DNA from: an uncultured Candidatus Saccharibacteria bacterium
Lineage (GTDB): Bacteria > Patescibacteriota > Minisyncoccia > Phycocordibacterales > PALSA-1337
Reading direction: 5' to 3'
Length of the DNA stretch: 41,334 nt
NCBI GenBank assembly: GCA_964349165.1
Contig: CAYGFL010000001.1
Coordinates: forward strand, 1 to 41,334
The notes beneath the pieces were generated by a model. That model saw nothing but the letters and a program-made list of their open reading frames with translations. It did not search any database and was not told where the DNA came from. The position numbers and the translations under genes were made by a program. Shown in pieces: positions 322 to 13,701 of the stretch. Numbering within the stretch: position 1 is the stretch's first letter; each line of letters starts with the position of its first letter.

Positions 322-348
322 AAAAACCCCGAGGACGAGTCCCCGAGG
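322..348 (-). terminator. Intrinsic terminator downstream of rnc
   Basis: Minus-strand hairpin ccucgggga-cucg-uccucgggg (9 bp including 2 G:U, tetraloop) followed by UUUUU, about 18 nt after the rnc stop codon. Confidence 0.55.
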
Positions 349-365
349 TGTGTGATTGAATTTGG

Positions 366-1049
366 TTAGAATAAAGCCAAGGCTTTTCTAGCCGCGTCAG
401 TCTCAGCATCCTGCTTCGATGTTCCGGTACCTTGTGCAAGAAGTTCTGTGTTGAAATAGACTCCCAGAGTGTACCTTTTGTCATGGTCGGGACCTTCTTC
501 GGCAAGGACGAGATAGGATGGAGCAACTTTGTGTTTCTTTTGCATAACATCCTGCAGTCTGCATTTAGCAGAAAGGAATTCGATCGTTTCGAGCTTTCCT
601 TTGTATTCTGATAAGAGAACGCGATGGACGAATTCTTCGGCTATCGTATACCCACGATCAACATACAAAGCACCAAGTATGGCTTCAAAAGTATCTGCCA
701 GAATAACATCTCGTGCCCGAGACTTTATATCTTTCTTCTCACCTTTTGAAAGAAGCAAGAAAAGTTCGATACCGAGCTTGCGGGCAACCTTGGCCGCCAC
801 TTCGCCGCCCACGATAAGGCTGCGTTTGGCCGTTAATACTCCTTCATCGTCATCTGGGAATGTCGTGAATAAGTATTTGCTTACGATAAGTTCGAGGACC
901 GCGTCACCGAGATACTCGAGTCGTTCGTTGTGTTTAAGTCCGCATCCACAATGTTCGTTGATATACGAACGGTGGGTGAGAGCTTGGCTTAAAAGAGTCT
1001 TGTCCCTGAAGACAACACCGAGTCTATTTTCAAGAATTGAGGTAGCCAT
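366..1049 (-). CDS. rnc: Ribonuclease III
   Basis: 227 aa. RNase III signature LTHRSY...ERLEYLGDAVLELIVSKYLF. C-terminal dsRBD-like segment KRYTLGVYF...GTGTSKQDAETDAARKAL. Confidence 0.93.
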   Translation of the reverse strand: MATSILENRLGVVFRDKTLLSQALTHRSYINEHCGCGLKHNERLEYLGDAVLELIVSKYLFTTFPDDDEGVLTAKRSLIVGGEVAAKVARKLGIELFLLLSKGEKKDIKSRARDVILADTFEAILGALYVDRGYTIAEEFVHRVLLSEYKGKLETIEFLSAKCRLQDVMQKKHKVAPSYLVLAEEGPDHDKRYTLGVYFNTELLAQGTGTSKQDAETDAARKALALF

Positions 1050-1098
1050 ATCTGCACTTTTTCTACCATATCTGACCCCCCACTGTCAAAATTTATAG

Positions 1099-1127
1099 TT
1101 GACCTTCCTTGGTTCTTGCGGTATTCT
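1099..1127 (+). promoter_or_regulatory. Putative sigma-70 type promoter for the DEAH helicase gene
   Basis: TTGACC (1099-1104), 17-nt spacer, TATTCT (1122-1127), about 30 nt upstream of the ATG at 1158. Confidence 0.35.
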
Positions 1128-1157
1128 CTCAGTAGGTTTTTTTTGACCTTTGAATTT

Positions 1158-3287
1158 ATGAACGACCTACCAATACTAGGGGCGGAAGCCCAAATCATGG
1201 GGCTTTTGGCCTCACACTCTGTAATCATCGTATGTGGTGAACCAGGGTCAGGCAAAACAACCCAACTCCCTCTAATGCTGTACCGTCAAAAGTTGGCATT
1301 ACATGGGTATATTGGGATTACACAACCGCGAAGGCTTGCGGCCGTTTCGGTGGCCAAATACGTCGCGGGACAACTAGGGTGCGAAGTGGGTCATACGGTT
1401 GGATACAAAATTCGCTTCGACAGAAATGTTGGGGATGAAACGCGAATCCAATTTATGACCACAGGCATTCTCCTCCGGGAACTTGCGCGAGATCCGTTAC
1501 TTAAGCACTACAAGGTAATTATTGTTGACGAAGCCCATGAACAGCAGATTGAGATTGATTTACTTCTTGGACTTCTCCGCGAAGTTCTGAAGAAGCGTGC
1601 TGATCTCAAGTTGATTGTGGCTTCGGCGACGATGGATACTGACAAGTTCTCCACGTACTTCGGCAAGGCGCCGGTGGTGAATGTCGACGGTCGGACTTTT
1701 CCGATCGAGGTGGAATACCTACAAAAATCACCTGCGGGATATTACGAACTCCTCCAGCAGATCGCCACGAAGGTTCATCATGTTCATCACATGGGTCCTG
1801 AAGGTGACATTCTTATCTTCATGTCTTGCAAAGAGGACATTTACGATTTGATCGAGGAGATTGAAAAATTTCGTATCGACAACCTCCTTGTCCTGCCGCT
1901 TTATGGGGGTATCCAGCCTCAGGAGCAGGAGAAAATCTTTGCTCCGGCTGTGGGAATACGAAAGGTGATCGTGGCGACCAACATTGCCGAGACGTCGCTT
2001 ACCATTCCTGGTGTGACGTGCGTCATCGACAGCGGCCTTGTTAAAGAAAGTCGTTTCGATGTCGAAATTGGCATTGAAAGTTTGGAAGTAATTAAGCATT
2101 CTCAAGCTGGCTGTAATCAGCGGAAGGGAAGAGCTGGGCGCGTCGCGCCCGGCATTTGCTACCGGATGTACAGCGAGAAAGAATTTGCAAAGCGGCCGAA
2201 GTTTACTTCGCCGGAAATGCAGAGGAAAAATCTCGATCCTGTCGTGTTGTATATGGAGACACGGGGACTTCCGAATGTGAATACGTTTGATTTCATCAAC
2301 AAACCGAGCGACCGTGCAGTTAATGATGCGTACCAATCCCTCGGCATCCTGGGCGCTCTGAACGTGATGAATCGTCGTCCTACAATACTTGGTCATAAAA
2401 TGTCCGAGCTTCCACTTCAACCTTATCTAGCACGGCTCGTCTGTGAAAGTGTGGAATATGGTTGTGTGGTCAATATGACCATCATCGCATCCTTTTTGTC
2501 AGCACAAAACATTTTCCTCCGTCCGCGAGGACGCGAAGATGAAGCCGATATGCATCACGCCATCCTTTCCCACCCGGAATCCGATCCCCTCACATTTCTG
2601 AAGATCTGGAGTCTGTATATGGAAAAAGGATGTGACAGGGAATGGTGTAAGGAGTATTTTCTGGACTGGCGTGCACTTGAGGACGTTAAATCCATTGTTG
2701 AGCAGCTATCAGTCCTTCTTCAGAAGAAAAATATTCTGCTAACAAATAACGACAATCCAGCCGTCTTGATGCGCTGCATTGTGTCCGCCTGCACCTACAA
2801 TATTATGGAACGGGTCAAAAGCTCGAACCATTACTCGGGATTATTTAATGCGACGAAGAAGGTGGAAATTCATCCCAATTCTCCGCTCGCAAAGAAAAAG
2901 CCCCGGTTCCTCATCGCCTCGTTCGTGCTCGAAACCTCCCGCGTATATATACATCATTGTACGCAGGTGAAAATCGAATGGCTCCCGGTCATTCTGCCTC
3001 AGCTATTCAAGTGCGGGAAACCAGTTTTGACGTCGTATAAGATTGGCGACAATCATGCGATGGGGGAACAGGAAGTTCTGTATAAAGGGGAAGTGGTTGG
3101 CAAGCGGCCGGTCCGTATCGTGCTCGATGTTGCGAAGCAACTCAATGAAGAGCAAAAGGTTCTTGATTTCGAGAAAGGTACTACGGTAGCTCCGCAACCC
3201 GCGGAGAAGCCGGAACCTGTTCCTGATGTCGTGGATCTTGCAACCTTCGTGGCTAACGCCTGGGGCGCCAAAGTCATTCAAAAATAA
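1158..3287 (+). CDS. DEAH-box ATP-dependent (RNA) helicase, HrpA/HrpB-like
   Basis: Walker A GEPGSGKTTQLP, motif II DEAHE, SAT (IVASATMD), motif VI QRKGRAGR, long HA2/OB-like C-terminal part. The ATG at 1158 is preferred over the TTG at 1116 because the predicted promoter overlaps 1116. Confidence 0.85.
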   Translation: MNDLPILGAEAQIMGLLASHSVIIVCGEPGSGKTTQLPLMLYRQKLALHGYIGITQPRRLAAVSVAKYVAGQLGCEVGHTVGYKIRFDRNVGDETRIQFMTTGILLRELARDPLLKHYKVIIVDEAHEQQIEIDLLLGLLREVLKKRADLKLIVASATMDTDKFSTYFGKAPVVNVDGRTFPIEVEYLQKSPAGYYELLQQIATKVHHVHHMGPEGDILIFMSCKEDIYDLIEEIEKFRIDNLLVLPLYGGIQPQEQEKIFAPAVGIRKVIVATNIAETSLTIPGVTCVIDSGLVKESRFDVEIGIESLEVIKHSQAGCNQRKGRAGRVAPGICYRMYSEKEFAKRPKFTSPEMQRKNLDPVVLYMETRGLPNVNTFDFINKPSDRAVNDAYQSLGILGALNVMNRRPTILGHKMSELPLQPYLARLVCESVEYGCVVNMTIIASFLSAQNIFLRPRGREDEADMHHAILSHPESDPLTFLKIWSLYMEKGCDREWCKEYFLDWRALEDVKSIVEQLSVLLQKKNILLTNNDNPAVLMRCIVSACTYNIMERVKSSNHYSGLFNATKKVEIHPNSPLAKKKPRFLIASFVLETSRVYIHHCTQVKIEWLPVILPQLFKCGKPVLTSYKIGDNHAMGEQEVLYKGEVVGKRPVRIVLDVAKQLNEEQKVLDFEKGTTVAPQPAEKPEPVPDVVDLATFVANAWGAKVIQK

Positions 3288-3337
3288 TTGTTCCATTTTT
3301 TCGCAAGGGGGCTCTGCAGAGGGCCTCTTTTTTGCAT

Positions 3338-3373
3338 AAAAAAACCGGATGGCCACAAGGGCATTCCGGTTTT
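3338..3373. terminator. Bidirectional intrinsic terminator between convergent helicase and sigma genes
   Basis: aaaaaaaccgga-[15 nt]-tccggtttt: stem ccgga/tccgg flanked by an A-run and a T-run, lying between the stop at 3287 (+) and the stop at 3405 (-). Confidence 0.5.
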
Positions 3374-3404
3374 GAAGAATCTAAATTACAGGTAGCGGAA
3401 TCAA

Positions 3405-5345
3405 TTAAGTTTCCACACCTTCGATTTTTTCGCCTTCGGAGTTAATCCGATAGCACGCACGAATTTTTTCAATGTCAGCTTGAATCTCTTCCTTTTGTAA
3501 AAGGACGGACTCGACTCGATTGAACCCTTTCATGGCCATTGCTGGTTTCCGTAAGAGGATTTCACCAACATCAAACCACGATAGGCCACCATCAATTCGT
3601 AGAAGATACATGGCAACGTGCCGTGCCCACACTACCGATGCGTGGTTATGATCTCCTATGAGCAGGTCCGTCGCAAATCCGTAGGCATAGGCGACGGAAT
3701 TCAGGATCTTGTTTAGGAGTTCCAGATCAAGAGGCCTCAAATTTGATCTGGCGAATTCAGGCATTTGTTTTGGCGCCTTATCCAATTTGGTTTCTTCACC
3801 GACGAGATTCTCAAGTTCTCGAATGCGTTGGAGAAGCGTAGGAAGGGTATCGATGGTGAGATCGAAGCCGATCACGTGAAGATTTTGCCAGATCTTGGTA
3901 TTGATCTGACGAATCCGTTCGCGTGTTACGCCTACCGCTTCGCCAAGATCTTGCAATACGAGACCCTCTGGTCCAGTAAGTTCGTTGTAAGCAAGAAATG
4001 CCTGTTTGTCCCGGTCGGAAACATCAAGACCTCGAACGGCGGCGATGAGGACACGAACTTTCTCACTCTCATCATCCAGAATTTCCTGAGCTTCATGCAT
4101 GGAGGATGGGGAGAGGAAGGAATCGCTAGATAATGAGTTCAGGAGTGTTACGTCCTCTCCCTCGCTATTCGCGAATACGACATCCTCGAGAGACGTCGTT
4201 GGGATCTGAAGGCGTTTGAACACCCTTGTCACTTGTTCGACACTCTCGTCGCATTTGGCCGCAATTTCTTCGACGGTTGGTTCCCTGCGGAGCTCGTGAG
4301 CCAGTTCTGCGGCTGTTCCCATTACCTTGTATCGCAACTCCTGGATGTGAACCGGGAATCGAATCAAGTCGTTGTAGGCGATAGCCCGGCCCATGGCCTG
4401 ACGTATCCACCATGTGGCATAAGTGGAAAACTTATTCCCCTTACTCCACTCAAACTTTTCCGCAGCCCGCATGAGGCCAATATTACCCTCCTGAACCAGA
4501 TCATCAAATTCCATCCCCCGAACCCGGCTTTTTTCTCGACGGTGATATTTGGAGGCGATTTTGAGGACCAAGCGAAGGTTGTGAGCGATGAGCTTTTTGT
4601 AGGCCCTGGCATCGTTCTGGTCGATTAGCTTGGCAAGCTCGACTTCTTCTTCTCGGGAGAGAATACGATGCTGGCTCGCAGCCTGGTAGAAAGATCGGGA
4701 GTTGTCACCGGGTTTGGTGCCAGTGAATTCCTCCAATTCCTCCGAAAGCGATGGGTCGCCAACGGATTCATTTTCATCTTCCGCCTCAGGATCTTCTCCA
4801 TCGATTTCATCGATCTCGTCCTCGAGGTCGGCTTCGGGCAAAATTTCTTTCACCCTCGGTATTTCATTCAAGAAATCTTCAGTTTCCGAAAATTCATCAT
4901 TCTCGGTCTTCCTGAATCTTGATTGAAACATTATGGTGCTTGCCTCGCGTCTTTCGTCACGATTCATCGGAATATGCTTACCCTTGTTTGCCTTTGAAGG
5001 CTTGGGTACTGCGTCCGCTACATTTCCTTTTTCAGGAGGTTGAGTTTCGCCTGCATCTTCGACCTTGTGCACATGCGTATGCGTGTGCATATGATTTACA
5101 GTCAAGTTGATCTCGACCTTAACCCTGATGGTCGCCAGAATTTTTGCGAGTTTCTGGAACGATTTGGAAAACTTTGTCCTATCCTTCGAGAGCGAAGGAG
5201 GGAACAAGGCTGATATCTCCTGAGGAGTGATCGTGCCTCTTTTGGAGGCTTCGTGGAGAGCGAGTCGGGCTTCTGGCCTAAGTTCGCAATCCCTGATAAC
5301 TTCGTCGCTTAAAAACGGCGAGATTACCTCATCTGGTATGTTCAT
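3405..5345 (-). CDS. Primary-like sigma-70 factor (regions 1.1, 1.2, 2, 3, 4) with a C-terminal DnaA domain-IV-like extension
   Basis: 646 aa. Acidic linker [23 protein letters not shown]. Region 2: [12 protein letters not shown]...[16 protein letters not shown]...[18 protein letters not shown]. Region 3: [10 protein letters not shown]. Region 4.2: [22 protein letters not shown]. About 156 extra C-terminal aa follow. SD-like GAAGGA lies 6 nt upstream of the ATG. Confidence 0.85.
3450..3731 (-). other. DnaA C-terminal (domain IV, Bac_DnaA_C-like) helix-turn-helix domain encoded at the 3' end of the sigma gene
   Basis: [88 protein letters not shown] aligns by eye to E. coli DnaA [72 protein letters not shown]...IKEDF. 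The RDHTTV motif is not conserved. Confidence 0.6.
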
Positions 5346-5418
5346 AAGTATCCTTCGGGTAAATTGTGGGGGTCAAAATCCGAAAATACTATATAATATT
5401 AAATTTAAATAGTAAATA

Positions 5419-5447
5419 TTGACATCGCTGTAAAACATGACAATATA
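5419..5447 (+). promoter_or_regulatory. Putative promoter of helicase 1 in the AT-rich divergent intergenic region
   Basis: TTGACA (5419-5424), 17-nt spacer, AATATA/TATATC (5442-5449). Confidence 0.35.
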
Positions 5448-5477
5448 TCCTTAGATTTCGCAACTTTAAAACAAAAT

Positions 5478-7481
5478 ATGTACACTCTATACGATTACCA
5501 GGTCGAGTGCCTATCAGCGCTCGAAATGGCTCGCCTCGGGGGCGCAAAAGAGGCACTCATTGTGCTGGCGAGTGGTCTTGGAAAGACCATTGGTACAGCA
5601 TTTGACGTTACTCATTGGCTTCAGACACATGGTGGCAGGGTACTCTATCTTTGCCATCAAAATGAAATTCTCCATCAGTCACAAGGAAAATTTTCGGAGG
5701 TTCTACCTCCACAAACTTCCTACGGTTTCTATCATGGGTTTGAAAAAAGCTCTCAAAAAGTCGACTGCTTATTCGCTTCCTTCCAAACCATGGCCAGACG
5801 ACACGTGCTTTTTAAGCCTGATGAGTTTGACTATGTGGTGGTAGACGAAAGTCATAATTCGGAAGCAATTACCTACGGAAAAGTTCTCGATTATTTCAAA
5901 CCTAAATTCCTTTTGGGTCTCACTGCGACACCCGAACGGATAGACGGATTGGATATTCGAAAACGTTTTGGGCAGCCCGTGTATTATTTGCCTCTTGAGG
6001 AGGCTCTCGCCAGGAATCTTTTGACTCCGGTCGATTATCGCCTCATAAGCAATGAAATCACCTTCGAAAAGCTTAATGTGTTTAACAACCGCGAAGGGCT
6101 CAGCGTTGATGATATCGACGATGAACTCTTTGTTTGTAAGACTGATGTGGAAATTAATACAGCAATCGAAAAAGCCGCATCCGAACTTGCCGATCCTCGC
6201 ACGATGATCTTTGCAAATACCATAGCTCGGGCTGATGAGCTTGCTTTGAGTGTTCCTGGAAGTGTAGTGATACATTCCCAGGTTCGCAAGAAAGAACGCG
6301 ACGTACAGCTCGAACTATTTCGAACCGGACTCGTCAAAACCGCCATAGTAGTCGACTGTTTTAACGAAGGAGTCGATGTACCGGAAGCGAACTTGCTCGT
6401 TTTCCTTCGTTCTACCCTCTCCGCCCGAATCTTTTTCCAACAGTTGGGAAGGGGTCTACGGAAATGCGAAGGGAAAGATAAAGTCATTGTCCTCGATTTT
6501 GTCGGGAATTGCGACCGAATCCTCAAGGTGAAAGCCTTGTCCGATTTGGTTGAAAAGTCCCGCAAAAAGCTTGAAGAAAAGCTGGATAATATTCCACGGG
6601 TGACCTTCACTTTTGATAACAAGATTGGTGAAGTTATCGACCTTGTTAAGAAAGCAAAACCGCCGCGGATTGCCGATTGTCCAGAACTTGTCACTGAGTA
6701 CTCACCTCGCAACAGCCGTCCTGCCTCTGAAGCGTCTGTAAAGATGACTGGAAAGTTGTGGTGGAAATGTGCGAAATGTGGCTATGAGTACCTGCGAACA
6801 ATAAGGGAGAGGCATTTAGGGCATGGGTGCCAGAAATGCGCAGAGGCAGTCACCGAATATAACAACCTTGTGGTCATGTATCCTTACTTAACCCAAGAAT
6901 ATTCAAGCATAAATCCTGTTCCTGCTTCGCAAACCAGATGTGTGAGTAAGGAATTGGTTTTGTGGAGTTGTCGGGAATGTAAGTATGAGTGGAAGGGGAG
7001 ACCATATTCGCGGACGCAAAGGGGAGATAATTGTCCCCAATGTTCTCGACTAATTAGTTTCTATCGGGATAATTTTGCCTTCCATCACCCCGACCTTCTT
7101 GAAGAGTATTCTTACATCAATCGGATGGCGCCGGAGAAATTCAGTCGCCGCTCGAATGTCCTTCGATGGTGGATTTGTAAGACATGCAATTCGGGTTGGC
7201 AAGCTACAGCTCGCGCGCGAGCAGACGGCAAAGCCGGATGCCCAAATGGATGTTCCTCTGTTTCCGCAGAAAAACAGACCATCGTTCTCTCCGCTCCTCA
7301 TCTTGCTGGACAGTATTCAGCAAGTAATGCAAAGCCTATTGAGGCTATAACTCCAACTTCTGATGAAATAGTCAGATGGTTCTGCGAGGATTGCGGGAGA
7401 TATTGGAGAGCTTCAGCGCGACAGCGTATGAATGGTCTCCAGTGTCCACAGTGCCATCCCGTCGTACCAGCCGTACTTTAA
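5478..7481 (+). CDS. SF2 helicase (ResIII/DEAD-like core) with four C-terminal treble-clef zinc-ribbon repeats
   Basis: 667 aa. ASGLGKT (aa 31-37), VVDESH (121-126), LGLTATPER, VVDCFNEGVDVP (291-302), QQLGRGLR. C-terminal aa 401-660 hold 4 Cys4 units. Confidence 0.85.
   Translation: MYTLYDYQVECLSALEMARLGGAKEALIVLASGLGKTIGTAFDVTHWLQTHGGRVLYLCHQNEILHQSQGKFSEVLPPQTSYGFYHGFEKSSQKVDCLFASFQTMARRHVLFKPDEFDYVVVDESHNSEAITYGKVLDYFKPKFLLGLTATPERIDGLDIRKRFGQPVYYLPLEEALARNLLTPVDYRLISNEITFEKLNVFNNREGLSVDDIDDELFVCKTDVEINTAIEKAASELADPRTMIFANTIARADELALSVPGSVVIHSQVRKKERDVQLELFRTGLVKTAIVVDCFNEGVDVPEANLLVFLRSTLSARIFFQQLGRGLRKCEGKDKVIVLDFVGNCDRILKVKALSDLVEKSRKKLEEKLDNIPRVTFTFDNKIGEVIDLVKKAKPPRIADCPELVTEYSPRNSRPASEASVKMTGKLWWKCAKCGYEYLRTIRERHLGHGCQKCAEAVTEYNNLVVMYPYLTQEYSSINPVPASQTRCVSKELVLWSCRECKYEWKGRPYSRTQRGDNCPQCSRLISFYRDNFAFHHPDLLEEYSYINRMAPEKFSRRSNVLRWWICKTCNSGWQATARARADGKAGCPNGCSSVSAEKQTIVLSAPHLAGQYSASNAKPIEAITPTSDEIVRWFCEDCGRYWRASARQRMNGLQCPQCHPVVPAVL
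6678..7457 (+). repeat. Protein-level array of 4 zinc-ribbon units (DUF4379/PF14311-like) in helicase 1
   Basis: The four units are: LVTEYSPRNS...LWWKCAKCGYEY...GHGCQKCAE; LTQEYSSINP...VLWSCRECKYEW...GDNCPQCSR; LLEEYSYINR...LRWWICKTCNSGW...KAGCPNGCS; LAGQYSASNA...VRWFCEDCGRYW...GLQCPQCH. Confidence 0.7.
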
Positions 7482-7511
7482 TCATCGTGAGTGTCAATTT
7501 TCTACACAATT

Positions 7512-7544
7512 CCCGCGTTCTCACAAGGACGCGGGTTTTCTTTT
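7512..7544 (+). terminator. Intrinsic terminator between the two helicase paralogs
   Basis: cccgcgt-tctcacaagg-acgcggg (7-bp GC-rich stem) followed by TTTTCTTTT. Confidence 0.65.
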
Positions 7545-7614
7545 GACATAAGTATTGATTTATGCTAGAAGTAAGACAGATTTTTTCGGTGAACTTTAAC
7601 AAAAAGGAACCTCA

Positions 7615-9627
7615 GTGATAACCCCACATTGGTACCAATCGGATTGTCTTAGGGCTATCCGGAGGGCGCGAGAAAAGGGCGCGAAAGAAGCCTTAATTGT
7701 CATGGCGAGCGGTCTCGGTAAAACGGTGACTGTTGCTCATGATGTTCTCGAGTTCAGGAAGAAAAATCCTAAAGCTCGAGTCCTTTTCCTTTGTGACAAG
7801 ATGGAAACTCTCCGTCAGGTCCGTACCACGTTCGAAGTTGTGAATGGTTCAGACCAGACTTACAGCTTTTATCTTGGAAAGAAAAAGGACGCCAAACTTC
7901 CGCAATTTGTTTTTGCAATGCTTCAGACAATGAGGAATAATTGCAAAAAGTTTGCGCCGAATGAGTTCGATTACGTCGCTGTAGACGAAAGTCATCATGC
8001 ATGTGCCGAGACTTATCTCGATGTGGTTCAGTATTGGAAACCGAAGTTCCTTCTTGGGATGACGGCGACCCCTGACCGCACAGATGGACAGGATATTTGC
8101 AAAGTCTTTGGGCGACCAGTGTTCTACCTGCCGATCGAGGAAGCGCTTGCTCAGGATCTGCTTACGTCGGTCGATTATCACATCCTAACCGATGAGATTA
8201 AATTACCTACATCTTCCCAACTGCATCTGGGAAGGTTAAAGCTCAGAAAGCTTAACAAACAGATCTTTATGCCCAAGAGGGATGAAGAGATCACTCGAAT
8301 CATCTCGAGGTATATTCGAGAAGTGCAAAATCCTCGCATGATAGTTTTTTGCGAGTCGGTTGAGCACTCTAACAATATGGCAAAATTTATCCCAAACGCT
8401 TTGCCATATCACTCGAAAATCTCTGCAGAGGAACGAACTGTCCGTTTGGGAATGTTCCAAAGCGGTCTAATTCCAACTCTTCTTGTTGTAGATTGCTTTA
8501 ACGAGGGAGTCGATGTTCCGCCAGCAAACGTTCTTGTTTTCTTGCGGTCAACATCTTCTCCAATCATCTTTCTTCAGCAACTTGGACGCGGTCTGCGCAT
8601 ATGTGAAGGGAAAGAGAAAGTGCTCGTACTCGACTTTGTTGCCAATTGTGAACGGATCAAAACTGTTTACGATCTCTGGCAGGAAGTTAAGGTAAAACGA
8701 GAGCGATTTCTTACTCGTAAACCCAGAGCCGTTCGTCATCAAGGTGTTCGGTATCCAGGGAAACCTCGCGAGCCATTCGTTGTGGATGGCGGTCAGGCCA
8801 ATTTTCATGAGAAAGTCGTCAGACTCATGGATATTGTCCGTCGGATTACTGATGGCTATAGCAAGGAAGAGGCGCTCCAATCTCTCATGGATTTCGCAAG
8901 CAAACTCGGCAGGTCACCGACTCAGCTTGAGGTGCATCACAACAGTGATATGCCAAGCCTTAGTTTCTATAAAAAGAACTTCGGTACATTCAGCGAGACA
9001 CTTGTGGCGGCAGGGCTTATACCTAATCGCTTCGATGAAGTTTCCAAAGACGAACTCCTTGATCAGCTCAGGAAACTCACCGACGAGTTACAGCACGCCC
9101 CTTCGCAAGACGAGGTTGCTGCAGCTTCGACTGCTGGGAAGTGTTCTTCAGAACCAGTTTTTAGAAAGCATTTCGAGTCATTGAATAATGCTATCGAAAA
9201 AATTGGCCATATTCCAGACCGACGTGTCGGAATGAGTAAAGAGGAACTTTGCGAACAGTTACGCAAACTGCATAAAAAATTGGGTCGTATCCCTGGCGTC
9301 GAAGATTTGAAAGAATCTTCGGCAGCAAGGGAAACAGCCAGTTATACTGCTTTTCGTGTCCGATTCAAATCTTGGCAGCGTGCCTTAAAAGCCGCTGGTC
9401 TGATTGATAAGGCAGTGGAAACCAAGAACTATTCAGACACCGATCTGATCCAATCCCTACAGAAGGCAAAAAAACTGCTGGGTAAAACGCCGACTACTGT
9501 AGATATTGAAAAACTACGGAAGGCAGGCAAAATTTGCAGCGCAAGTGTAATCGTCTATTACCATCATTTCGACGGAGGTTGGGCCAATGTGCTCAAAGCC
9601 GCCGGAATTGAGGAAGACATTCACTAA
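7615..9627 (+). CDS. SF2 helicase paralog (ResIII/DEAD-like core) with four C-terminal homing-endonuclease-associated (HEAR-like) helical repeats
   Basis: 670 aa, GTG start. ASGLGKT (31-37), VAVDESH (121-127), LGMTATPDR, VVDCFNEGVDVP (291-302), QQLGRGLR, all colinear with helicase 1. C-terminal aa 415-664 hold 4 helical units. Confidence 0.85.
   Translation: MITPHWYQSDCLRAIRRAREKGAKEALIVMASGLGKTVTVAHDVLEFRKKNPKARVLFLCDKMETLRQVRTTFEVVNGSDQTYSFYLGKKKDAKLPQFVFAMLQTMRNNCKKFAPNEFDYVAVDESHHACAETYLDVVQYWKPKFLLGMTATPDRTDGQDICKVFGRPVFYLPIEEALAQDLLTSVDYHILTDEIKLPTSSQLHLGRLKLRKLNKQIFMPKRDEEITRIISRYIREVQNPRMIVFCESVEHSNNMAKFIPNALPYHSKISAEERTVRLGMFQSGLIPTLLVVDCFNEGVDVPPANVLVFLRSTSSPIIFLQQLGRGLRICEGKEKVLVLDFVANCERIKTVYDLWQEVKVKRERFLTRKPRAVRHQGVRYPGKPREPFVVDGGQANFHEKVVRLMDIVRRITDGYSKEEALQSLMDFASKLGRSPTQLEVHHNSDMPSLSFYKKNFGTFSETLVAAGLIPNRFDEVSKDELLDQLRKLTDELQHAPSQDEVAAASTAGKCSSEPVFRKHFESLNNAIEKIGHIPDRRVGMSKEELCEQLRKLHKKLGRIPGVEDLKESSAARETASYTAFRVRFKSWQRALKAAGLIDKAVETKNYSDTDLIQSLQKAKKLLGKTPTTVDIEKLRKAGKICSASVIVYYHHFDGGWANVLKAAGIEEDIH
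8857..9606 (+). repeat. Protein-level array of 4 HEAR-like (PF18780-like) repeats in helicase 2
   Basis: The four units are: SKEEALQSLMDFASKLGRSPT...FYKKNFGTFSETLVAAGL; SKDELLDQLRKLTDELQHAPS...FRKHFESLNNAIEKIGH; SKEELCEQLRKLHKKLGRIPG...FRVRFKSWQRALKAAGL; SDTDLIQSLQKAKKLLGKTPT...YYHHFDGGWANVLKAAGI. Confidence 0.65.
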
Positions 9628-9642
9628 CTGATCAAACTTCAC

Positions 9643-9676
9643 AGCCGATCTCATAAGGGTCGGCTTTTTCTTTTTA
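9643..9676. terminator. Intrinsic terminator after helicase 2 (may also serve the convergent methyltransferase gene)
   Basis: agccga-[11 nt]-tcggct followed by TTTTTCTTTTT. Confidence 0.55.
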
Positions 9677-9680
9677 GTAA

Positions 9681-10433
9681 CTATTTTTTACAGACAAAAA
9701 TAAAAGAGGCGGGCATTTTCTCAGCCTTTTCGATCGAATAATATTTTCCTGGGTCTTTAAAACCATGATTAAGGTTATTTGGTTTAGGTTCATGGTAACC
9801 AATAACCTCAAATCCAGCGTTTCGTAAAAGAGTAAACCATGTCGAAGTTTTTCTATATGCAATATATACTTGCGTCCCATCTTTTTTCCAATTCCTGATA
9901 AGTCTAGGTTTCTCATCATGGTATGAGTGTGAAATGACATACTTATCATTTTCATATCGTATATTGCTGAAGATACCATGATCCCAACTCCAGATGAATA
10001 ATCCCCCCGGCTTGAGATAAGAGTAAATATTTTTAAGTGTAGCCTCTGGATCATATGTCCAGCCGATTCCATAAATGGAAAATACAATATCAACAAATTC
10101 AATATCTAATTTTAACTCCATTTTTCCATTAATAAGTTTAACCTTACCACTTTCAATTAAATCCGTATTGAATCTGCTGGCTTCTGCAATTTGGACTTTG
10201 GACATATCAAGACCATACACCTTTTTTGCCCCGTGATTGATTAGGTATTTTATTGATCTTCCGCTCCCGCAACCTATTTCAAGTAATACCTTACCCTCTA
10301 TATTAGAGAGTAAATTAAGATCATTTCCTATACCAAAAGGTCCCCATGTGGGCAATGAACACGCTTCTACAAATTGATCGGCGACCATATCCCAAGTCCT
10401 CTCATTTTCTCTAATAATATTATCTACAGACAT
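9681..10433 (-). CDS. Class I SAM-dependent methyltransferase
   Basis: Motif I VLLEIGCGSGRS, then VYGLDMS, post-I/II motifs. The ATG at 10433 was chosen because the upstream part of the ORF overlaps tRNA-Lys. The gene is very AT-rich. Confidence 0.75.
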   Translation of the reverse strand: MSVDNIIRENERTWDMVADQFVEACSLPTWGPFGIGNDLNLLSNIEGKVLLEIGCGSGRSIKYLINHGAKKVYGLDMSKVQIAEASRFNTDLIESGKVKLINGKMELKLDIEFVDIVFSIYGIGWTYDPEATLKNIYSYLKPGGLFIWSWDHGIFSNIRYENDKYVISHSYHDEKPRLIRNWKKDGTQVYIAYRKTSTWFTLLRNAGFEVIGYHEPKPNNLNHGFKDPGKYYSIEKAEKMPASFIFVCKK

Positions 10434-10436
10434 TTG

Positions 10437-10509
10437 TGCGCCTAGTTGGAATCGAACCAACGACCCACTCCTTAAAAGGGAGATGCTCTACCAACTGAGC
10501 TATAGGCGC
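10437..10509 (-). tRNA. tRNA-Lys (anticodon UUU)
   Basis: GCGCCTATAGCTCAGTTGGTAGAGCATCTCCCTTTTAAGGAGTGGGTCGTTGGTTCGATTCCAACTAGGCGCA. Full cloverleaf, anticodon loop CTTTTAA, T-loop TTCGATT. Confidence 0.9.
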
Positions 10510-10559
10510 ATAAGGGGGACACTGCGCAAGACTATACCATAGTCTTGCAAAACTTCAAT

Positions 10560-10919
10560 TTATAACGGCATGTCAAAAGCCAGAATACCAGGACCGAGGA
10601 CAAGAAGGGAAAGGGAAATGATGAAGAGAATGAAGTAGTAGTTCACACCGTCTGTGAAGAAAGATTTCATCTGAACCTTCCTCAATAATTTACAGAAAAA
10701 AACCACAACAGCAAAGAGCGCTGCAATCTGTGTATATAGACCGATGACAAGGAGGATACCAGCTACACCATCTAGAATACCCATAACAGTCATTCTGGCA
10801 TGTGACCTGCTCCTCAATTTATCATATGACCAGAAGATGAGAATGGCTCCGAGAGTGACACGTAGTATGAATGGCGCTATTTGTTCGTAAGTTAATAATG
10901 AAGGAAAAAGTGAAAGCAT
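10560..10919 (-). CDS. DoxX-family small membrane protein
   Basis: 119 aa from MLSLFPSLLTYEQIAPFILRVTLGAILIFWSYDKL. Four hydrophobic segments. The upstream 72 codons of the ORF overlap the divergent trmH-like gene and are discounted. Confidence 0.5.
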   Translation of the reverse strand: MLSLFPSLLTYEQIAPFILRVTLGAILIFWSYDKLRSRSHARMTVMGILDGVAGILLVIGLYTQIAALFAVVVFFCKLLRKVQMKSFFTDGVNYYFILFIISLSLLVLGPGILAFDMPL

Positions 10920-10954
10920 GTTGATGTTTAATTTAACTGATATATAGTGTCTGT

Positions 10955-11440
10955 ATGATATCACAAACCAAAGAGATCTGTCTCGCACTACACAATATCC
11001 GTAGTGTATACAATGTAGGCGCCATATTCCGCACGGCGGATGCCGTCGGAGTATCGAAAATATATCTCTGTGGCTACACTGGAGCGCCTGTAGATAGGTT
11101 CGGTAGAGCGAGGAAGGATATAGCAAAAGTGGCACTAGGAGCAGAGAAGACTGTGAAATGGGAGTCTGTGAAAGACATAGAAGAACTAATTTTAAAACTT
11201 AAAAAAGAAAAATTTACAATTCTTGCGCTGGAACAAAGTGCAAATTCAGTAGATTATAAAAAAGTAAAACTCGGTAAAAAGAATTTATTGATAGTCGGCA
11301 ATGAAGTGGGAGGTATTGAGAAGAAAATTTTAAATATGTGCGATTCTATTTTAGAAATACCGATGAAAGGGGAGAAGGAGTCGCTGAACGTCTCTGTCGC
11401 CACAGGGGTTGCATTATTTGGGATTGGTGGTAATCTTTAG
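10955..11440 (+). CDS. SpoU/TrmH-family RNA 2'-O-methyltransferase
   Basis: LHNIRSVYNVGAIFRTADAVG...LLIVGNEVGGIEKKIL...ILEIPMKGEKESLNVSVATGVALF (SPOUT knot motifs). Confidence 0.85.
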   Translation: MISQTKEICLALHNIRSVYNVGAIFRTADAVGVSKIYLCGYTGAPVDRFGRARKDIAKVALGAEKTVKWESVKDIEELILKLKKEKFTILALEQSANSVDYKKVKLGKKNLLIVGNEVGGIEKKILNMCDSILEIPMKGEKESLNVSVATGVALFGIGGNL

Positions 11441-11519
11441 CAGGTTCGTGATTCGGGTTTTGCAAGAGCAGGGCGGCAGGTGATTACATACTCGTGTGAG
11501 TGTGTCCTGCCGTCCTTTT

Positions 11520-12392
11520 TTATTTATCTAATTTTTGATGTACAGGACAATAGTGAGTCCCTCTGCCCGCTACAACAATACGCGCGATATATCCTTTGCA
11601 CCCAGATTTTCGACACTTCTCGCCTCTCCTCTGATATGCCTGATGTTGCTCTTGGAACTTTCCTCTTTTGCCATGAATGTTTCTGTAGTCTGACATAGAA
11701 TCTCCACCAAAATCTATACCTTTTTTCAAAACTGTTTTTATATCTACAAAAAGTTGTTTTAATTTGGCTTCTGGTATTTTATTAACAATCATCTCTGGAT
11801 GTATACCTGCACGCCAGAGACTCTCGTCTGCATAAATATTACCAATACCAGCGATAATAGCTTGATCTGTGAGAGTGGGTTTTATCTTTTTATCTTTTTT
11901 AATAAAAATTCTTTCTTGGAACTTGTCGAAAGTAAATTTCTTCTCTAGAGGTTCTGGTCCGATATCCTTGAGATGTGTAGATACATGAAGGGAATCGGTC
12001 GGGATAAGAGTTACTTTTGCAAACTTTCGAGCGTCGCATAACTCTATATTTTTACCATTTGAGAGATGCAAAATGAGATGTATAAAGCGATTGTACGGAT
12101 CACTTTTATCATAATCTCCATATAGAATATGACCAGTCATCTTCATGTGTATCAGTATTGTGAGGTTATCCGATAGATGGATAAGAACATTTTTAGCCCT
12201 ACGACTAACATGGGTGATTATTTTACCTTTTACTATTTTTTTAAAATAGAGAAAATATTTGGGATCTTTGATATTATCAGAACCTTTGTAATATGGACTT
12301 TTGTAATCTGTCCATACATCTATAACTTTTAGATTTCTTGCGACACCGTCCAATCCACTAGCTGTGGTTTGGACTTCTGGCAATTCTGGCAT
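11520..12392 (-). CDS. mutM: Formamidopyrimidine-DNA glycosylase (Fpg/MutM)
   Basis: N-terminal MPELPEV catalytic motif, H2TH region, C-terminal zinc finger CRKSGCKG...THYCPVHQ. Confidence 0.9.
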   Translation of the reverse strand: MPELPEVQTTASGLDGVARNLKVIDVWTDYKSPYYKGSDNIKDPKYFLYFKKIVKGKIITHVSRRAKNVLIHLSDNLTILIHMKMTGHILYGDYDKSDPYNRFIHLILHLSNGKNIELCDARKFAKVTLIPTDSLHVSTHLKDIGPEPLEKKFTFDKFQERIFIKKDKKIKPTLTDQAIIAGIGNIYADESLWRAGIHPEMIVNKIPEAKLKQLFVDIKTVLKKGIDFGGDSMSDYRNIHGKRGKFQEQHQAYQRRGEKCRKSGCKGYIARIVVAGRGTHYCPVHQKLDK

Positions 12393-12420
12393 ACAATTCT
12401 TATATCACACTTTCTTTCTA

Positions 12421-13701
12421 ATGAAAAATATATTAATAGCAATTTTTGTCACAGCAGTCCTTTGCACATTCTGGTTCGCAGGAAGTTATCCCAAAGCCTT
12501 TTACTATATCGACCTTGCTTACCAAAACGTAGGAGCCATCGTCGACGACACTCTCGTATATCTACAAGGCACCATAGCTGCTGTACTACTACACAAGCCT
12601 GTGACTGTCGCAGAACTACAGACGAAATACAATGCGCCCACACAGAAGAAAGTTCGAGTTCTCATAATCCCAGGACATGAGCCGAACTATGGTGGCACGG
12701 CTTTCAATGGACTCAACGAAAGGGAAATGAATGTAGAGCTCGCGAATAACCTGGCGGAATTTCTGAAGAATAATGGACACTATGACGTCATGCTCGCTCG
12801 CGATAATAACAATTGGAATCCGGTATTGTCCGAATATTTTAGAGTCCAGTGGGATGAGATAGTAGCCTTTTTCAAAGATAATAAAGAAGAGACTTTGCAC
12901 CTTGTGAATACGGGAAAAGTTACTGCGCCTGTTGCAAAAGTTTTCCATAACAAAGCTCGTAGTGATGTGGCGCTACGTCTGTACGGAATAAATAAATGGG
13001 AAAATGAAAATGCAGTCGACATCGCTATACATGTCCATTTCAATGATTACCCTAGAAAAAATGCCTCTGAACCCGGCAAACATTCTGGCTTCTCTATGTA
13101 TGTGCCAGAGAAGCAATACGCAAACAGTGTGACGACGAAAGCTATCGCCGAAAAAGTCTTCGTAAGATTGTCGAAATATAATGCTGTCAGTGACTTGCCA
13201 CAGGAGGATGCGGGAATAATAGAGGAGCCGGATCTCATCGCTATCGGTGCCTTCAACACGACGAACTCTGCTAGTATGCTCATAGAATATGGATATATTT
13301 ATGAACCACAATTTCACAACGAGGAAGTTCGACATAGTACGTTGCGAGACTTGGCTTTCCAGACATATCTAGGACTTCAAGATTTCTTCGGCAGTGGCAA
13401 CGATGTCTCTTTCGCCTACGATACTCTCATGCTCCCACATCTCTGGACAGGTGAGCTTTCTACAAAAAAGGCGGATGCTCGTGACGTACTAGCTCTGCAA
13501 TCGGCACTGCTACTCGATGGGCTTTATCCTGGAAATGGTAAGACAAAAAATGAATGTCCACGAACAGGCAGAATAGGTCCATGTACACTCGGAGCTATAG
13601 GGGCGTTTCAAAATAAATATGGAATAAAAGGTGAAGAGGGAATCGTGGGTGAAAAAACTAGAAAGATTCTCAATGAGAAGTATTCTGTGAAGACGATCTG
13701 A
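12421..13701 (+). CDS. N-acetylmuramoyl-L-alanine amidase (Amidase_3-like) with C-terminal PG_binding_1 domain
   Basis: N-terminal TM MKNILIAIFVTAVL. VLIIPGHEPNYGG...ELANNL...DIAIHVHFN. C-terminal VLALQSALLLDGLYPG...GAIGAFQNKYGIKGEEGIVGEKT. Confidence 0.65.
   Translation: MKNILIAIFVTAVLCTFWFAGSYPKAFYYIDLAYQNVGAIVDDTLVYLQGTIAAVLLHKPVTVAELQTKYNAPTQKKVRVLIIPGHEPNYGGTAFNGLNEREMNVELANNLAEFLKNNGHYDVMLARDNNNWNPVLSEYFRVQWDEIVAFFKDNKEETLHLVNTGKVTAPVAKVFHNKARSDVALRLYGINKWENENAVDIAIHVHFNDYPRKNASEPGKHSGFSMYVPEKQYANSVTTKAIAEKVFVRLSKYNAVSDLPQEDAGIIEEPDLIAIGAFNTTNSASMLIEYGYIYEPQFHNEEVRHSTLRDLAFQTYLGLQDFFGSGNDVSFAYDTLMLPHLWTGELSTKKADARDVLALQSALLLDGLYPGNGKTKNECPRTGRIGPCTLGAIGAFQNKYGIKGEEGIVGEKTRKILNEKYSVKTI

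What the first reader, a model, noticed from the sequence alone, without database searches (positions are those of the whole stretch)
5478..9627. Tandem paralogous SF2 helicases whose colinear cores carry two different four-unit C-terminal repeat arrays
Two same-strand neighbouring genes encode ResIII/DEAD-type cores that align residue for residue over about 350 aa. Shared motifs are ASGLGKT at aa 31-37 in both, DESH, TATP, VVDCFNEGVDVP at aa 291-302 in both, and QQLGRGLR. Identity is roughly 40-50% by eye.

After a basic linker the proteins become unrelated. Helicase 1 ends in four ~55-aa Cys4 treble-clef zinc-ribbon units with the pattern L-x-x-EYS-x-x-N ... WW-x-C-x-x-CG-x-x-W ... G-x-x-CP-x-C, which matches my memory of DUF4379. 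Helicase 2 ends in four ~55-aa helical units with the pattern SKEEL-x-x-x-LRKL-x-x-x-LGR-x-P ... F-x-x-x-F-x-SW-x-x-AL-x-AAGL, which matches the homing-endonuclease-associated repeat. Both repeat types are otherwise linked to HNH/homing endonucleases and are presumed nucleic-acid-binding modules.

Each gene has its own terminator and promoter region (terminator at 7512-7544). The pair sits divergent to a sigma factor that itself carries an extra DNA-binding domain. One translocase scaffold with two interchangeable 4x recognition arrays suggests a targeting or surveillance module (defence, anti-MGE or MGE-derived), which I cannot match to any described system.
Basis: partly seen in the sequence, partly recalled or inferred. 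Interest (0 to 1): 0.75.

Follow-up and report, generated by a model that had tools for sequence, protein, structure and literature searches.

The report
Sigma-linked helicase pair with swappable tails
Two neighbouring genes in a Patescibacteria (CPR) genome encode nuclease-free relatives of a restriction-enzyme motor, each ending in a different four-unit array of small binding modules, and across related genomes they are consistently next to, or fused with, a sigma factor, which points to an undescribed ATP-driven helper of transcription rather than a defence system.

Summary
ORF A (5478-7481) and ORF B (7615-9627) share an SF2 ATPase core (48% identity over 378 aa). A ends in 4 DUF4379 zinc ribbons and B in 4 HNH_repeat helical units.

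The core belongs to the SauUSI (type IV restriction) ATPase family. In Patescibacteria the same core also carries a third, unrelated tail (INT_rpt) and a hybrid tail.

A sigma-70 gene, with DnaA-domain-IV-like unit(s) in 9 of the 10, lies divergently upstream of the A-type helicase in 10/10 related loci. A second helicase follows in 8/11. An HrpA-like helicase and RNase III recur nearby. At least eight proteins, each in a separate cluster of a library clustered at 50% identity, fuse sigma, helicase and array in one chain, some with DnaA_C or RNase III.

Flanking genes are mostly housekeeping, and no nuclease or known defence system is present. The best reading is sigma/RNA-polymerase-coupled nucleic-acid translocases. 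A defence role is not excluded, because some relatives sit on mobile elements. The function is untested and I found no publication on it.

The parts
5478..7481 (+). Helicase A: SF2 ATPase core (aa 1-~345) + basic linker + 4 DUF4379 zinc-ribbon units
   Evidence: ORF; Pfam ResIII, Helicase_C and DUF4379 x4; ATPase motifs and Cys ligands invariant in 25 homologues
6678..7463 (+). Array A: four Cys4 zinc-ribbon units (nt 6678-6848, 6879-7052, 7086-7259, 7293-7463)
   Evidence: Unit mapping. AlphaFold model with mean pLDDT 88.3. Foldseek matches only DUF4379 proteins of kinetoplastid mitoribosomes, best 6yxx_E2 at 1.3e-11. Unit order is conserved between orthologues.
7512..7545 (+). Intrinsic-terminator-like hairpin plus T-tract after helicase A
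   Evidence: 10-bp stem with 7 GC pairs; dG -17.5 kcal/mol, z -4.7, 0 of 200 shuffles fold as well
7615..9627 (+). Helicase B: paralogous SF2 ATPase core + basic linker + 4 HNH_repeat helical units
   Evidence: ORF; Pfam ResIII, Helicase_C and HNH_repeat x4; 48% identical to A over 378 aa
8857..9612 (+). Array B: four four-helix HNH_repeat units (nt 8857-9024, 9040-9216, 9232-9408, 9430-9612)
   Evidence: Unit mapping. AlphaFold model with mean pLDDT 89.9, four units of four helices. No significant PDB match. Three uncharacterised phage proteins match in BFVD. Unit order is conserved.
9643..9675 (+). Intrinsic-terminator-like hairpin plus T-tract after helicase B
   Evidence: dG -13.2 kcal/mol, z -5.7
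5419..5446 (+). Promoter-like element for helicase A: TTGACA (5419-5424), TG (5438-5439), CAATAT (5441-5446)
   Evidence: The -35 box and the TG of an extended -10 align in the intergenic regions of 8/8 related loci; sequence read
7543..7571 (+). Promoter-like element for helicase B: TTGACA (7543-7548), TG (7563-7564), TAGAAG (7566-7571)
   Evidence: Read directly from the sequence. It has the same layout as the conserved element upstream of A. It was not tested across loci.
3405..5345 (-). Divergent sigma-70 factor (regions 1.2, 2, 3, 4) with a C-terminal DnaA-domain-IV-like HTH; the invariant neighbour of A-type helicases
   Evidence: Pfam; adjacency in 10/10 loci; orthologues carry 1-4 DnaA_C units; fused to helicases in other genomes
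1116..3287 (+). Short HrpA-like DEAH helicase; a looser member of the neighbourhood
   Evidence: NCBIfam HrpA 1.2e-172, below cutoff; recurs within 10 kb upstream in 6 loci
366..1049 (-). RNase III (catalytic domain + dsRBD); a looser member of the neighbourhood
   Evidence: Pfam; also next to the cluster in L007; fused to sigma-helicase proteins P0351 and P0352

Best explanation
The two genes encode paralogous, nuclease-free ATP-driven nucleic-acid translocases. They belong to a Patescibacteria-specific branch of the SauUSI-type (type IV restriction) SF2 ATPase family.

Shown:
- Both have complete and conserved ATPase motifs.
- Both lack any nuclease domain.
- At the position where SauUSI has its target-recognition domain, each carries an ordered array of four small modules: Cys4 zinc ribbons in A and four-helix units in B. 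Unit identity is position-specific across orthologues.
- Each gene has its own promoter-like element and its own terminator.
- The A-type gene is always divergently adjacent to a sigma-70 factor. That factor carries DnaA-domain-IV-like HTH unit(s) in 9 of the 10 loci.
- In other Patescibacteria the sigma, the helicase with its array, DnaA_C and RNase III are fused into single proteins, in two different domain orders.

Inferred:
- The arrays bind extended nucleic-acid sites.
- The motor translocates on duplex DNA.
- The proteins work physically with the sigma-containing RNA polymerase. Each array anchors or targets one motor, and ATP hydrolysis then remodels promoter DNA, polymerase-DNA complexes or nascent RNA structures. 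DNA is not cut.
- Two paralogues with unrelated arrays would give two target specificities for the same motor.
For: Architecture:
- Pfam domain calls for both proteins.
- The cores match SauUSI (7clg_A) residues 221-563 at E 1.8e-50 and 3.8e-49. One search confirms that 7CLG is SauUSI, with a PLD nuclease at 1-191, an ATPase, a helical coupler and a recognition domain.
- Non-Patescibacteria relatives are PLDc_2 + helicase, often with DUF3427. The repeat-tailed cores separate from them in 50/50 bootstraps.
- Walker A, DExH, motif III and motif VI are invariant in 25 homologues, as are the zinc ligands.
- Both array models are confident, with mean pLDDT 88-90.
- Unit order is conserved: 46-64% identity on the diagonal against 24-39% off it.
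- Tails and linkers are basic.
- Tandem DUF4379-like modules in phage homing endonucleases are interpreted as modular DNA-binding domains (PMC12350094).

Link to sigma and transcription:
- A divergent sigma lies upstream of the A-type helicase in 10/10 loci with upstream DNA, at 40-87% helicase identity, while the outer flanks differ from locus to locus.
- Contig-length matches tie 5 sigma-DnaA_C proteins to helicase contigs.
- A conserved extended -10 promoter lies in the shared intergenic region.
- Fusion proteins P0210, P0355, P0381, P0395, P0398 and P0429 (sigma + helicase +/- array), P0352 (+ RNase III) and P0351 (helicase + array + sigma + RNase III) are each separate representatives of a library clustered at 50% identity.
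- P0210 is one uninterrupted ORF under table 11.
- Several fusions were seen in two or more sources or on contigs of 97-730 kb. One is in NCBI nr.
- The fusion locus L005 shares a 60%-identical methyltransferase with the window.

Context:
- Neighbours are housekeeping genes in most loci.
- There is no system-level PADLOC match.
Against: - No experiment exists on any member. Binding of the arrays to nucleic acid, translocation and contact with RNA polymerase are all inferred.
- Adjacency could partly reflect inherited synteny within one lineage.
- Two more distant sigma-DnaA_C genes have no helicase neighbour. More distant A-type helicases (36-38% identity) occur without a sigma.
- The fusions retrieved involve HNH_repeat- or INT_rpt-type helicases, not the DUF4379 type. 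The query biased the search towards those.
- Only P0210 was checked at the DNA level.
- Some family members lie in mobile or defence-like contexts (L089; L170 and L171).
- The only solved DUF4379 proteins are ribosome-associated, so the ligand could be RNA.
- It is not known whether this sigma is the organism's primary sigma.
Confidence: 0.55

Rival explanations
1. Defence or anti-mobile-element module. The arrays sense foreign DNA. The motors then act like SauUSI or type I enzymes, either with an unlinked nuclease or by stripping or blocking invader replication.
For: - The core is most similar to type IV and type I restriction ATPases (PADLOC mREase_IV 6e-52).
- All three tail families are otherwise associated with homing endonucleases or integrases (PHROG HNH endonuclease hits).
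- A tandem pair of HNH_repeat helicases sits between an integrase with a Panacea antitoxin and a C5 methylase in L089.
- CBASS genes or integrases lie near the cluster in L171 and L170.
- The sigma scores as well against the MzaA defence sigma model as against RpoD, though far below the cutoff.
Against: - Neither protein has a nuclease or other effector domain, and none lies in the conserved cluster.
- No PADLOC system is matched.
- Flanks are housekeeping genes in most loci.
- Orthologous order and unit-by-unit conservation across 40-87% identity look vertically inherited.
- Fusion to a complete sigma factor and to RNase III is hard to reconcile with a restriction-like role.
- No DUF4379-type helicase was found in 2.9 million viral contigs.
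Confidence: 0.17
2. RNA or ribonucleoprotein remodelling. The proteins act on RNA, for example in rRNA or transcript processing, together with RNase III and the HrpA-like helicase. The sigma link would reflect co-transcriptional processing.
For: - RNase III and an HrpA-like DEAH helicase recur in the neighbourhood.
- RNase III is fused to sigma-helicase proteins P0351 and P0352.
- The only solved DUF4379 proteins are mitoribosomal components or assembly factors.
Against: - The closest characterised relatives of the core (SauUSI, HsdR, RadD, XPB) are DNA-dependent enzymes.
- DEAD-box RNA helicases match only weakly, at E 1e-6 or worse.
- HNH_repeat, INT_rpt and DnaA_C are found in DNA-enzyme contexts.
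Confidence: 0.15
3. Two independent DNA-repair or recombination helicases (RadD-like) whose adjacency to each other and to the sigma is inherited gene order without functional coupling.
For: - The NCBIfam RadD model is the top hit for A (2.3e-33) and the second hit for B.
- Each gene has its own promoter-like element and terminator.
- The second helicase is missing in 3 of 11 loci.
- The sigma occurs without a helicase in L173 and L174.
Against: - RadD scores are 115 and 92 bits against a cutoff of 720.
- The sigma-A pair is retained in 10/10 loci while the outer flanks differ in every locus.
- Gene fusions have arisen in two different domain orders, which argues for functional coupling.
Confidence: 0.1

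Closest known systems
SauUSI (Staphylococcus aureus type IV restriction enzyme, PDB 7CLG)
   Same: It has a homologous SF2 translocase ATPase (E about 1e-50 over SauUSI residues 221-563). The layout is also shared: ATPase, then a linker or coupler, then a C-terminal recognition module. In SauUSI, target recognition by that module activates ATP-driven dsDNA translocation (PMC7913695; abstract of bioRxiv 10.1101/2025.10.16.682607).
   Different: There is no N-terminal PLD nuclease and no DUF3427/SRA-like reader. The genomic context is a sigma factor rather than a defence locus. SauUSI dimerises through the nuclease domain that is missing here.
XPB/Ssl2 of TFIIH (archaeal/eukaryotic)
   Same: It is an SF2 dsDNA translocase. 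The cores here match XPB/Rad25 at E 1e-12 to 1e-14 in the PDB and at 1e-9 to 1e-11 in NCBIfam. From established knowledge, XPB works with the initiation machinery to open promoter DNA. That is the nearest functional analogy for a translocase tied to a sigma factor.
   Different: Scores are far below the XPB family cutoff (41 against 610 bits). The damage-recognition and thumb domains were not detected. Bacterial sigma-70 initiation is normally ATP-independent. The analogy is untested.
RadD (E. coli SF2 repair helicase)
   Same: It has a ResIII/Helicase_C core followed by zinc-binding and C-terminal accessory regions. The RadD model is the top NCBIfam hit for A, and the PDB entry 6jde matches at 1.9e-23.
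   Different: Scores are 115 and 92 bits against a cutoff of 720. RadD has no tandem DUF4379 or HNH_repeat arrays and no reported link to a sigma factor.
RNA-polymerase-associated ATPases RapA/HepA and HelD (from established knowledge)
   Same: These are bacterial ATPases that act on RNA polymerase-DNA complexes to recycle or release them. The cores here give weak SWI2_SNF2 Pfam matches.
   Different: They bind core polymerase and are not encoded with or fused to sigma. They belong to different helicase subfamilies and have no repeat arrays. They were not tested here.
Modular DNA-binding arrays of homing endonucleases (NUMOD-type; DUF4379/CapR-like units in phage group II intron endonucleases)
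   Same: They are tandem ~55-60-aa modules of the same Pfam families attached to a catalytic core and thought to read extended DNA sites (PMC12350094; PHROG HNH endonuclease hits).
   Different: Here the modules are attached to an ATPase motor and not to a nuclease. The genes show no sign of being mobile in this window.
MzaA sigma of the MZA anti-phage system
   Same: The neighbouring sigma hits the MzaA models (PADLOC 3.6e-34; NCBIfam 186 bits).
   Different: The cutoff is 800 bits, and the RpoD and RpoS models score the same. No other Mza component is present.

Membership tests
SF2 helicase/translocase (ResIII + Helicase_C) | Both RecA-like domains with Walker A, DExH, motif III and motif VI | tested here: met
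   Pfam scores are above cutoffs for both proteins. GLGKT, DESH, TATP and QQLGRGLR are present and invariant in 25 homologues.
SauUSI-type type IV restriction enzyme | Homologous SF2 ATPase domain | tested here: met
   7clg_A at E 1.8e-50 and 3.8e-49; PADLOC mREase_IV at 6e-52 and 1e-50, covering profile positions ~221-563 only
SauUSI-type type IV restriction enzyme | N-terminal PLD-family nuclease domain (HxK motif) | tested here: not met
   Both proteins start directly with the helicase (motif I at aa 31-37) and have no PLDc hit. Non-Patescibacteria relatives do have PLDc_2.
SauUSI-type type IV restriction enzyme | C-terminal DUF3427/SRA-like modified-cytosine reader | tested here: not met
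   No DUF3427 hit; the C-termini are DUF4379 x4 and HNH_repeat x4
RadD (NF053632) | Score at or above the equivalog cutoff | tested here: not met
   115.3 and 92.1 bits against a cutoff of 720
Type I restriction R subunit (HsdR) | Model cutoff reached, and HsdM/HsdS partner genes nearby | tested here: not met
   90-113 bits against cutoffs of 550-729. There are no methylase or specificity genes in the cluster.
XPB (NF045503) | Score at or above the equivalog cutoff | tested here: not met
   41 and 37 bits against a cutoff of 610
DUF4379 (PF14311) treble-clef zinc ribbon | Profile match above cutoff, four Cys ligands per unit, matching fold | tested here: met
   136.9 bits against 24.5, in 4 units. 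The Cys ligands are conserved. The model matches solved DUF4379 proteins at 1.3e-11. Zinc binding itself was not tested.
HNH_repeat (PF18780) | Profile match above cutoff in tandem copies | tested here: met
   161.9 bits against 26, in 4 units; confident four-helix units
Homing endonuclease | Nuclease domain (HNH, GIY-YIG, LAGLIDADG, Vsr-like) | tested here: not met
   No nuclease family hit in either protein
Known anti-phage systems (PADLOC 2.0) | Full-length match to a system component, plus partner genes | tested here: not met
   Only core-domain matches were found. Neighbours gave no hits except a partial methyltransferase-domain match to mad2.
MzaA sigma (NF041931), for the neighbouring gene | Score at or above the equivalog cutoff | tested here: not met
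   186 bits against a cutoff of 800, equal to the RpoD model's score
Sigma-coupled helicase module (proposed here) | Physical interaction of helicase with sigma or RNA polymerase | not testable with these tools
   Only genomic adjacency (10/10 loci) and gene fusions are available

The most novel reading that the evidence does not exclude
Patescibacteria have an ATP-dependent step in sigma-70 transcription. A SauUSI/XPB-like duplex-DNA translocase is tethered to the sigma factor, either by fusion or as a partner. It is positioned by its four-unit array and by the sigma's DnaA-like HTH units. It pumps or unwinds promoter DNA, or clears stalled complexes, and in some lineages it is coupled directly to RNase III processing of the transcript. 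This would be a bacterial counterpart of the TFIIH XPB mechanism.
Probability: 0.12. Interest if true: 0.9.

Novelty: new variant of a known kind. Interest (0 to 1): 0.66.

Why it matters
Bacterial sigma-70 initiation is the textbook case of ATP-independent promoter opening. A family of SF2 translocases that is consistently encoded beside a sigma factor, and repeatedly fused to one, would be an unexpected addition to the bacterial transcription machinery. The sigma itself carries arrays of DnaA-type HTH units, and some fusions include RNase III.

These organisms have very small genomes, so conserved genes are unlikely to be idle.

The family is also a clear natural example of one motor being retargeted by swapping unrelated tandem binding modules (zinc ribbons, HNH_repeat, INT_rpt). 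Those modules may be usable as programmable nucleic-acid readers. Finally, it shows how a restriction-enzyme motor can be stripped of its nuclease and put to other use.

Tried and rejected
1. DnaA boxes. TTATCCACA with up to 1 mismatch is not enriched in the window (14 matches against 11 expected) and is absent from the cluster's intergenic regions.
2. Homology between tail families. hhalign of unit profiles gave 26% probability for HNH_repeat against INT_rpt and below 1% for either against DUF4379. They are treated as unrelated.
3. Fold of the HNH_repeat array. Foldseek against the PDB gave nothing significant (best E 0.48; weak hits to sigma, TetR and DsrC HTH-like proteins). BFVD gave only three uncharacterised phage proteins.
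4. Clean tail-specific clades in the core tree. They were not found. The best DUF4379 clade has F1 0.68 and 6/50 bootstrap support.
5. Recent genomic island. The window's cluster is 5 GC points richer than its flanks. Across 11 loci the cluster stays at 0.43-0.55 GC and equals its flanks in GC-richer genomes. No tRNA genes lie near the cluster in the other loci. The result is ambiguous.
6. Metagenome scans. The scan with P0210 found no relatives. The scan with the fusion alignment was swamped by ordinary sigma factors, because the pattern chosen was the universal region-2 motif.
7. PDB sequence search with the window sigma's C-terminus gave no hit.
8. Literature searches on the repeat families, on sigma-helicase fusions and on Patescibacteria sigma, helicase and RNase III found nothing relevant.
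9. GenBank phages. No record covers more than the core of B.

Full report
**1. Observation**

The two ORFs are real and lie at the stated coordinates: A = 5478..7481 (667 aa) and B = 7615..9627 (670 aa), both on the + strand. Pfam gives ResIII + Helicase_C in both. A has DUF4379 (2.6e-40, four stretches) and B has HNH_repeat (4.3e-48, four stretches). The cores are 48% identical over 378 aa (E 3e-109), and all similarity ends near residue 375.

I mapped the units to aa 401-457, 468-525, 537-594 and 606-662 in A, and to aa 415-470, 476-534, 540-598 and 606-666 in B. Within an array the units are only 26-36% identical, so these are old repeats. Unit 3 of A has CPNGC as its second zinc knuckle. 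The linkers are basic, with pI 9.6 and 10.6, and the tails have pI 9.0 and 8.6.

A strong hairpin plus T-tract follows each stop codon: 7512-7535 (dG -17.5, z -4.7) and 9643-9665 (dG -13.2, z -5.7). Each gene is preceded by TTGACA, then 16-17 nt containing TG, then an A/T-rich hexamer. For gene A this extended -10 promoter layout is conserved in 8/8 related loci.

**2. What the core is**

The best solved relative of both cores is 7clg_A (E about 1e-50, residues 221-563). That entry is SauUSI: a PLD nuclease (1-191), a linker, an SF2 translocase ATPase, a helical coupler and a target-recognition domain (PMC7913695). PADLOC's type IV restriction model matches over the same segment only. RadD, type I HsdR and XPB models also match, but far below their cutoffs.

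A scan of species-representative genomes shows that outside Patescibacteria the core sits in proteins of 750-1600 aa with N-terminal extensions. The six I scanned are PLDc_2 + helicase, some with DUF3427 or HIT. The repeat-tailed Patescibacteria cores separate from these in 50/50 bootstraps.

A and B are therefore nuclease-free relatives of a restriction-enzyme motor, with the arrays in the position of the recognition domain. The ATPase motifs and the zinc ligands are invariant in 25 homologues.

**3. The arrays**

Both tails fold confidently.
- Tail B has mean pLDDT 89.9 and forms four units of four helices. It has no significant PDB match and matches only three uncharacterised phage proteins in BFVD.
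- Tail A has mean pLDDT 88.3. It matches only the DUF4379 proteins of kinetoplastid mitoribosomes (6yxx_E2 at 1.3e-11, plus mS66 and mt-SAF33).

Four is the commonest unit number in both families, with a range of 1-9. Each unit in the window is closest to the unit at the same position in orthologues: 46-64% against 24-39% for other positions. The arrays are therefore ordered sets and not homogenised repeats.

The same core clade also carries a third tail, INT_rpt, and one protein (P0075) has both DUF4379 and INT_rpt units. The three unit types are not detectably related to one another, and the tail types are interspersed in the core tree.

The literature treats tandem DUF4379-like units in phage homing endonucleases as modular DNA-binding domains (PMC12350094). 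HNH_repeat has no known structure (PMC8078820).

**4. Context**

The window's neighbours are RNase III (366-1049, minus strand), an HrpA-like DEAH helicase (1116-3287), the sigma (3405-5345, minus strand), A, B, a methyltransferase, tRNA-Lys, SpoU, Fpg, an amidase, a Mur ligase and RuvA.

I examined eleven loci whose A-type helicase is 40-87% identical to A. They are the window, L001, L004, L006, L007, L009, L010 and L169-L172.
- A sigma-70 gene lies divergently upstream in all 10 loci that include the upstream DNA.
- A second helicase follows in 8 loci. It is the HNH_repeat type in 4 and the INT_rpt type in 4.
- The second helicase is absent in 3 loci. In one of them (L170), an integrase, Rep and Zot element lies in its place.
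- An HrpA-like gene lies within 10 kb upstream in 6 loci. RNase III is adjacent in 2.
- The outer flanks differ in every locus and are mostly housekeeping genes, including aminoacyl-tRNA synthetases, DnaE, TopA, RNase R, S16 and PurD.

The sigma-DnaA_C architecture is rare in the protein database: 8 hits among thousands of ordinary ~380-aa RpoD proteins. Five of those hits share contig lengths with helicase contigs. Its orthologues carry 1-4 DnaA_C units. The sigma diverges faster than the helicases.

The association is not symmetric. Two more distant sigma-DnaA_C genes lack a helicase neighbour. More distant A-type helicases occur alone.

**5. Fusions**

P0210 (1010 aa) has a complete sigma core. 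Its residues 14-283 align with the window sigma's residues 206-488 (E 1e-19). This sigma core is joined to a helicase and HNH_repeats. In L005 it is one uninterrupted ORF under table 11. That locus also shares a 60%-identical methyltransferase with the window.

An exhaustive search with P0210, followed by Pfam scans, found further fusions. Each is a separate representative in a library clustered at 50% identity.

| Protein | Domain order |
|---|---|
| P0355 | sigma r1.2-r4 + helicase + 4 HNH_repeat |
| P0381 | sigma + helicase + INT_rpt |
| P0395 | sigma + weak DnaA_C + helicase + INT_rpt |
| P0398, P0429 | sigma + helicase |
| P0352 | sigma + helicase + INT_rpt + RNase III + dsRBD |
| P0351 | helicase + HNH_repeat + sigma + RNase III + dsRBD (a different order) |

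The junctions read as normal protein, and the RNase III signature ERLEFLGD is intact. Several fusions occur in two or more sources or on contigs of 97-730 kb, and one is in NCBI nr.

The fused parts are exactly the parts that are neighbours in the window. This is the strongest evidence that the helicases work with the sigma.

**6. Interpretation**

Shown: conserved ATPase motors without a nuclease; ordered four-unit arrays; separate transcription units; a conserved link to the sigma by adjacency and by fusion.

Inferred: the arrays bind nucleic acid; the motor translocates on duplex DNA, as its closest characterised relatives do; and the proteins act with sigma-containing RNA polymerase to remodel promoter DNA, polymerase-DNA complexes or nascent RNA. 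Confidence in this reading is about 0.55.

Rivals:
- Defence (0.17). In favour are the restriction-type core, the endonuclease- and integrase-associated tails, and relatives in mobile or defence-like contexts (L089, L170, L171). Against it are the absence of any effector, the absence of any system match, and the sigma and RNase III fusions.
- RNA or RNP remodelling (0.15). In favour are the RNase III and HrpA links and the fact that DUF4379 is solved only in ribosomes.
- Unlinked repair helicases (0.10).

**7. Comparison and novelty**

The proteins are not members of the SauUSI, RadD, HsdR or XPB families, because defining features were tested and not met. They are members of the generic SF2, DUF4379 and HNH_repeat families. 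NCBI names their homologues only as zinc-ribbon domain-containing protein or DEAD/DEAH box helicase family protein. I found no paper on the architecture, on the sigma-DnaA_C factor or on sigma-helicase fusions.

I rate this a new variant of a known kind: a nuclease-free SauUSI-family motor with swappable arrays, set in an undescribed sigma-linked gene module. The boldest reading that the evidence does not exclude is an ATP-dependent, XPB-like step in bacterial transcription (probability about 0.12).

**8. Limits**

- There is no experimental evidence for any member.
- Only one fusion was checked at the DNA level.
- It is unknown whether this sigma is the primary sigma.
- The organism is identified only as Patescibacteria, from the names given to homologues.

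Noticed in passing
window 3405-5345 (-); P0233, P0234, P0237: The sigma-70 factor carries a C-terminal DnaA-domain-IV-like HTH. The match is below the Pfam cutoff in the window (28.1 bits against 31.5), but orthologues score 59-157 bits and carry up to four tandem DnaA_C units. The architecture is rare (8 hits) and diverges faster than the neighbouring helicases.
   Followed up: partly
window 366-1049 (-) and 1116-3287 (+); L007, L009, L010, L170, L171: RNase III and a short (~720-760 aa) HrpA-like DEAH helicase recur next to the sigma-helicase cluster. RNase III + dsRBD is fused to the C-terminus of sigma-helicase proteins P0351 and P0352.
   Followed up: partly
window 5419-5446; alignment A4 of 8 loci: A conserved extended -10 sigma-70-type promoter (TTGACA/TTTACA, about 14 nt, TG, then an A/T-rich -10) lies upstream of the A-type helicase in all 8 aligned loci.
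   Followed up: yes
window 1-9627 versus 9628-41334: There is a GC step: RNase III, HrpA, sigma, A and B are at 0.46-0.49 GC and the rest of the window is at 0.41. Across 11 loci the cluster is 2-7 points richer than its flanks in AT-rich genomes and equal to them in genomes of ~0.51 GC. The cause is unresolved (composition constraint or transfer).
   Followed up: partly
window 9681-10430 (-); L005 5068-5820: The class I SAM methyltransferase downstream of B is 60% identical to the one ~1.2 kb downstream of the sigma-helicase fusion gene in L005. It gives a partial PADLOC match to mad2 (57.8 bits, methyltransferase domain only). The long ORF call 9681-10460 overlaps tRNA-Lys (10436-10509), so the true start is probably further downstream.
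   Followed up: partly
L089 (IMG/VR contig) 1744-13406: A mobile-element-like stretch contains a tyrosine integrase, a SocA/Panacea antitoxin, two tandem HNH_repeat helicases (4 and 6 units) and a C5 cytosine methylase. Some repeat-tailed helicases therefore travel on mobile DNA.
   Followed up: partly
L170 11070-17047; L171 1-739 and 15476-18605; L173 8621-12022: In L170 an integrase, NYN, RadC, Rep and Zot element sits directly after the A-type helicase, where the second helicase normally lies. CBASS genes (CD-NTase with Cap15 or SAVED) lie within a few kb of the cluster in L171 and near the sigma in L173. No tRNA genes are nearby.
   Followed up: no
P0075 (740 aa): A hybrid tail: two DUF4379 units followed by an INT_rpt unit on one helicase. 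This is direct evidence that modules are shuffled between arrays.
   Followed up: no
L001 14314-18852 (-): The DnaE gene immediately downstream of the helicase pair in this 680-kb contig contains an intein with a LAGLIDADG homing endonuclease.
   Followed up: no
L006 2350-3279: A 309-aa ORF with no Pfam or PADLOC match is inserted between the DUF4379-type and INT_rpt-type helicases in this locus only.
   Followed up: partly
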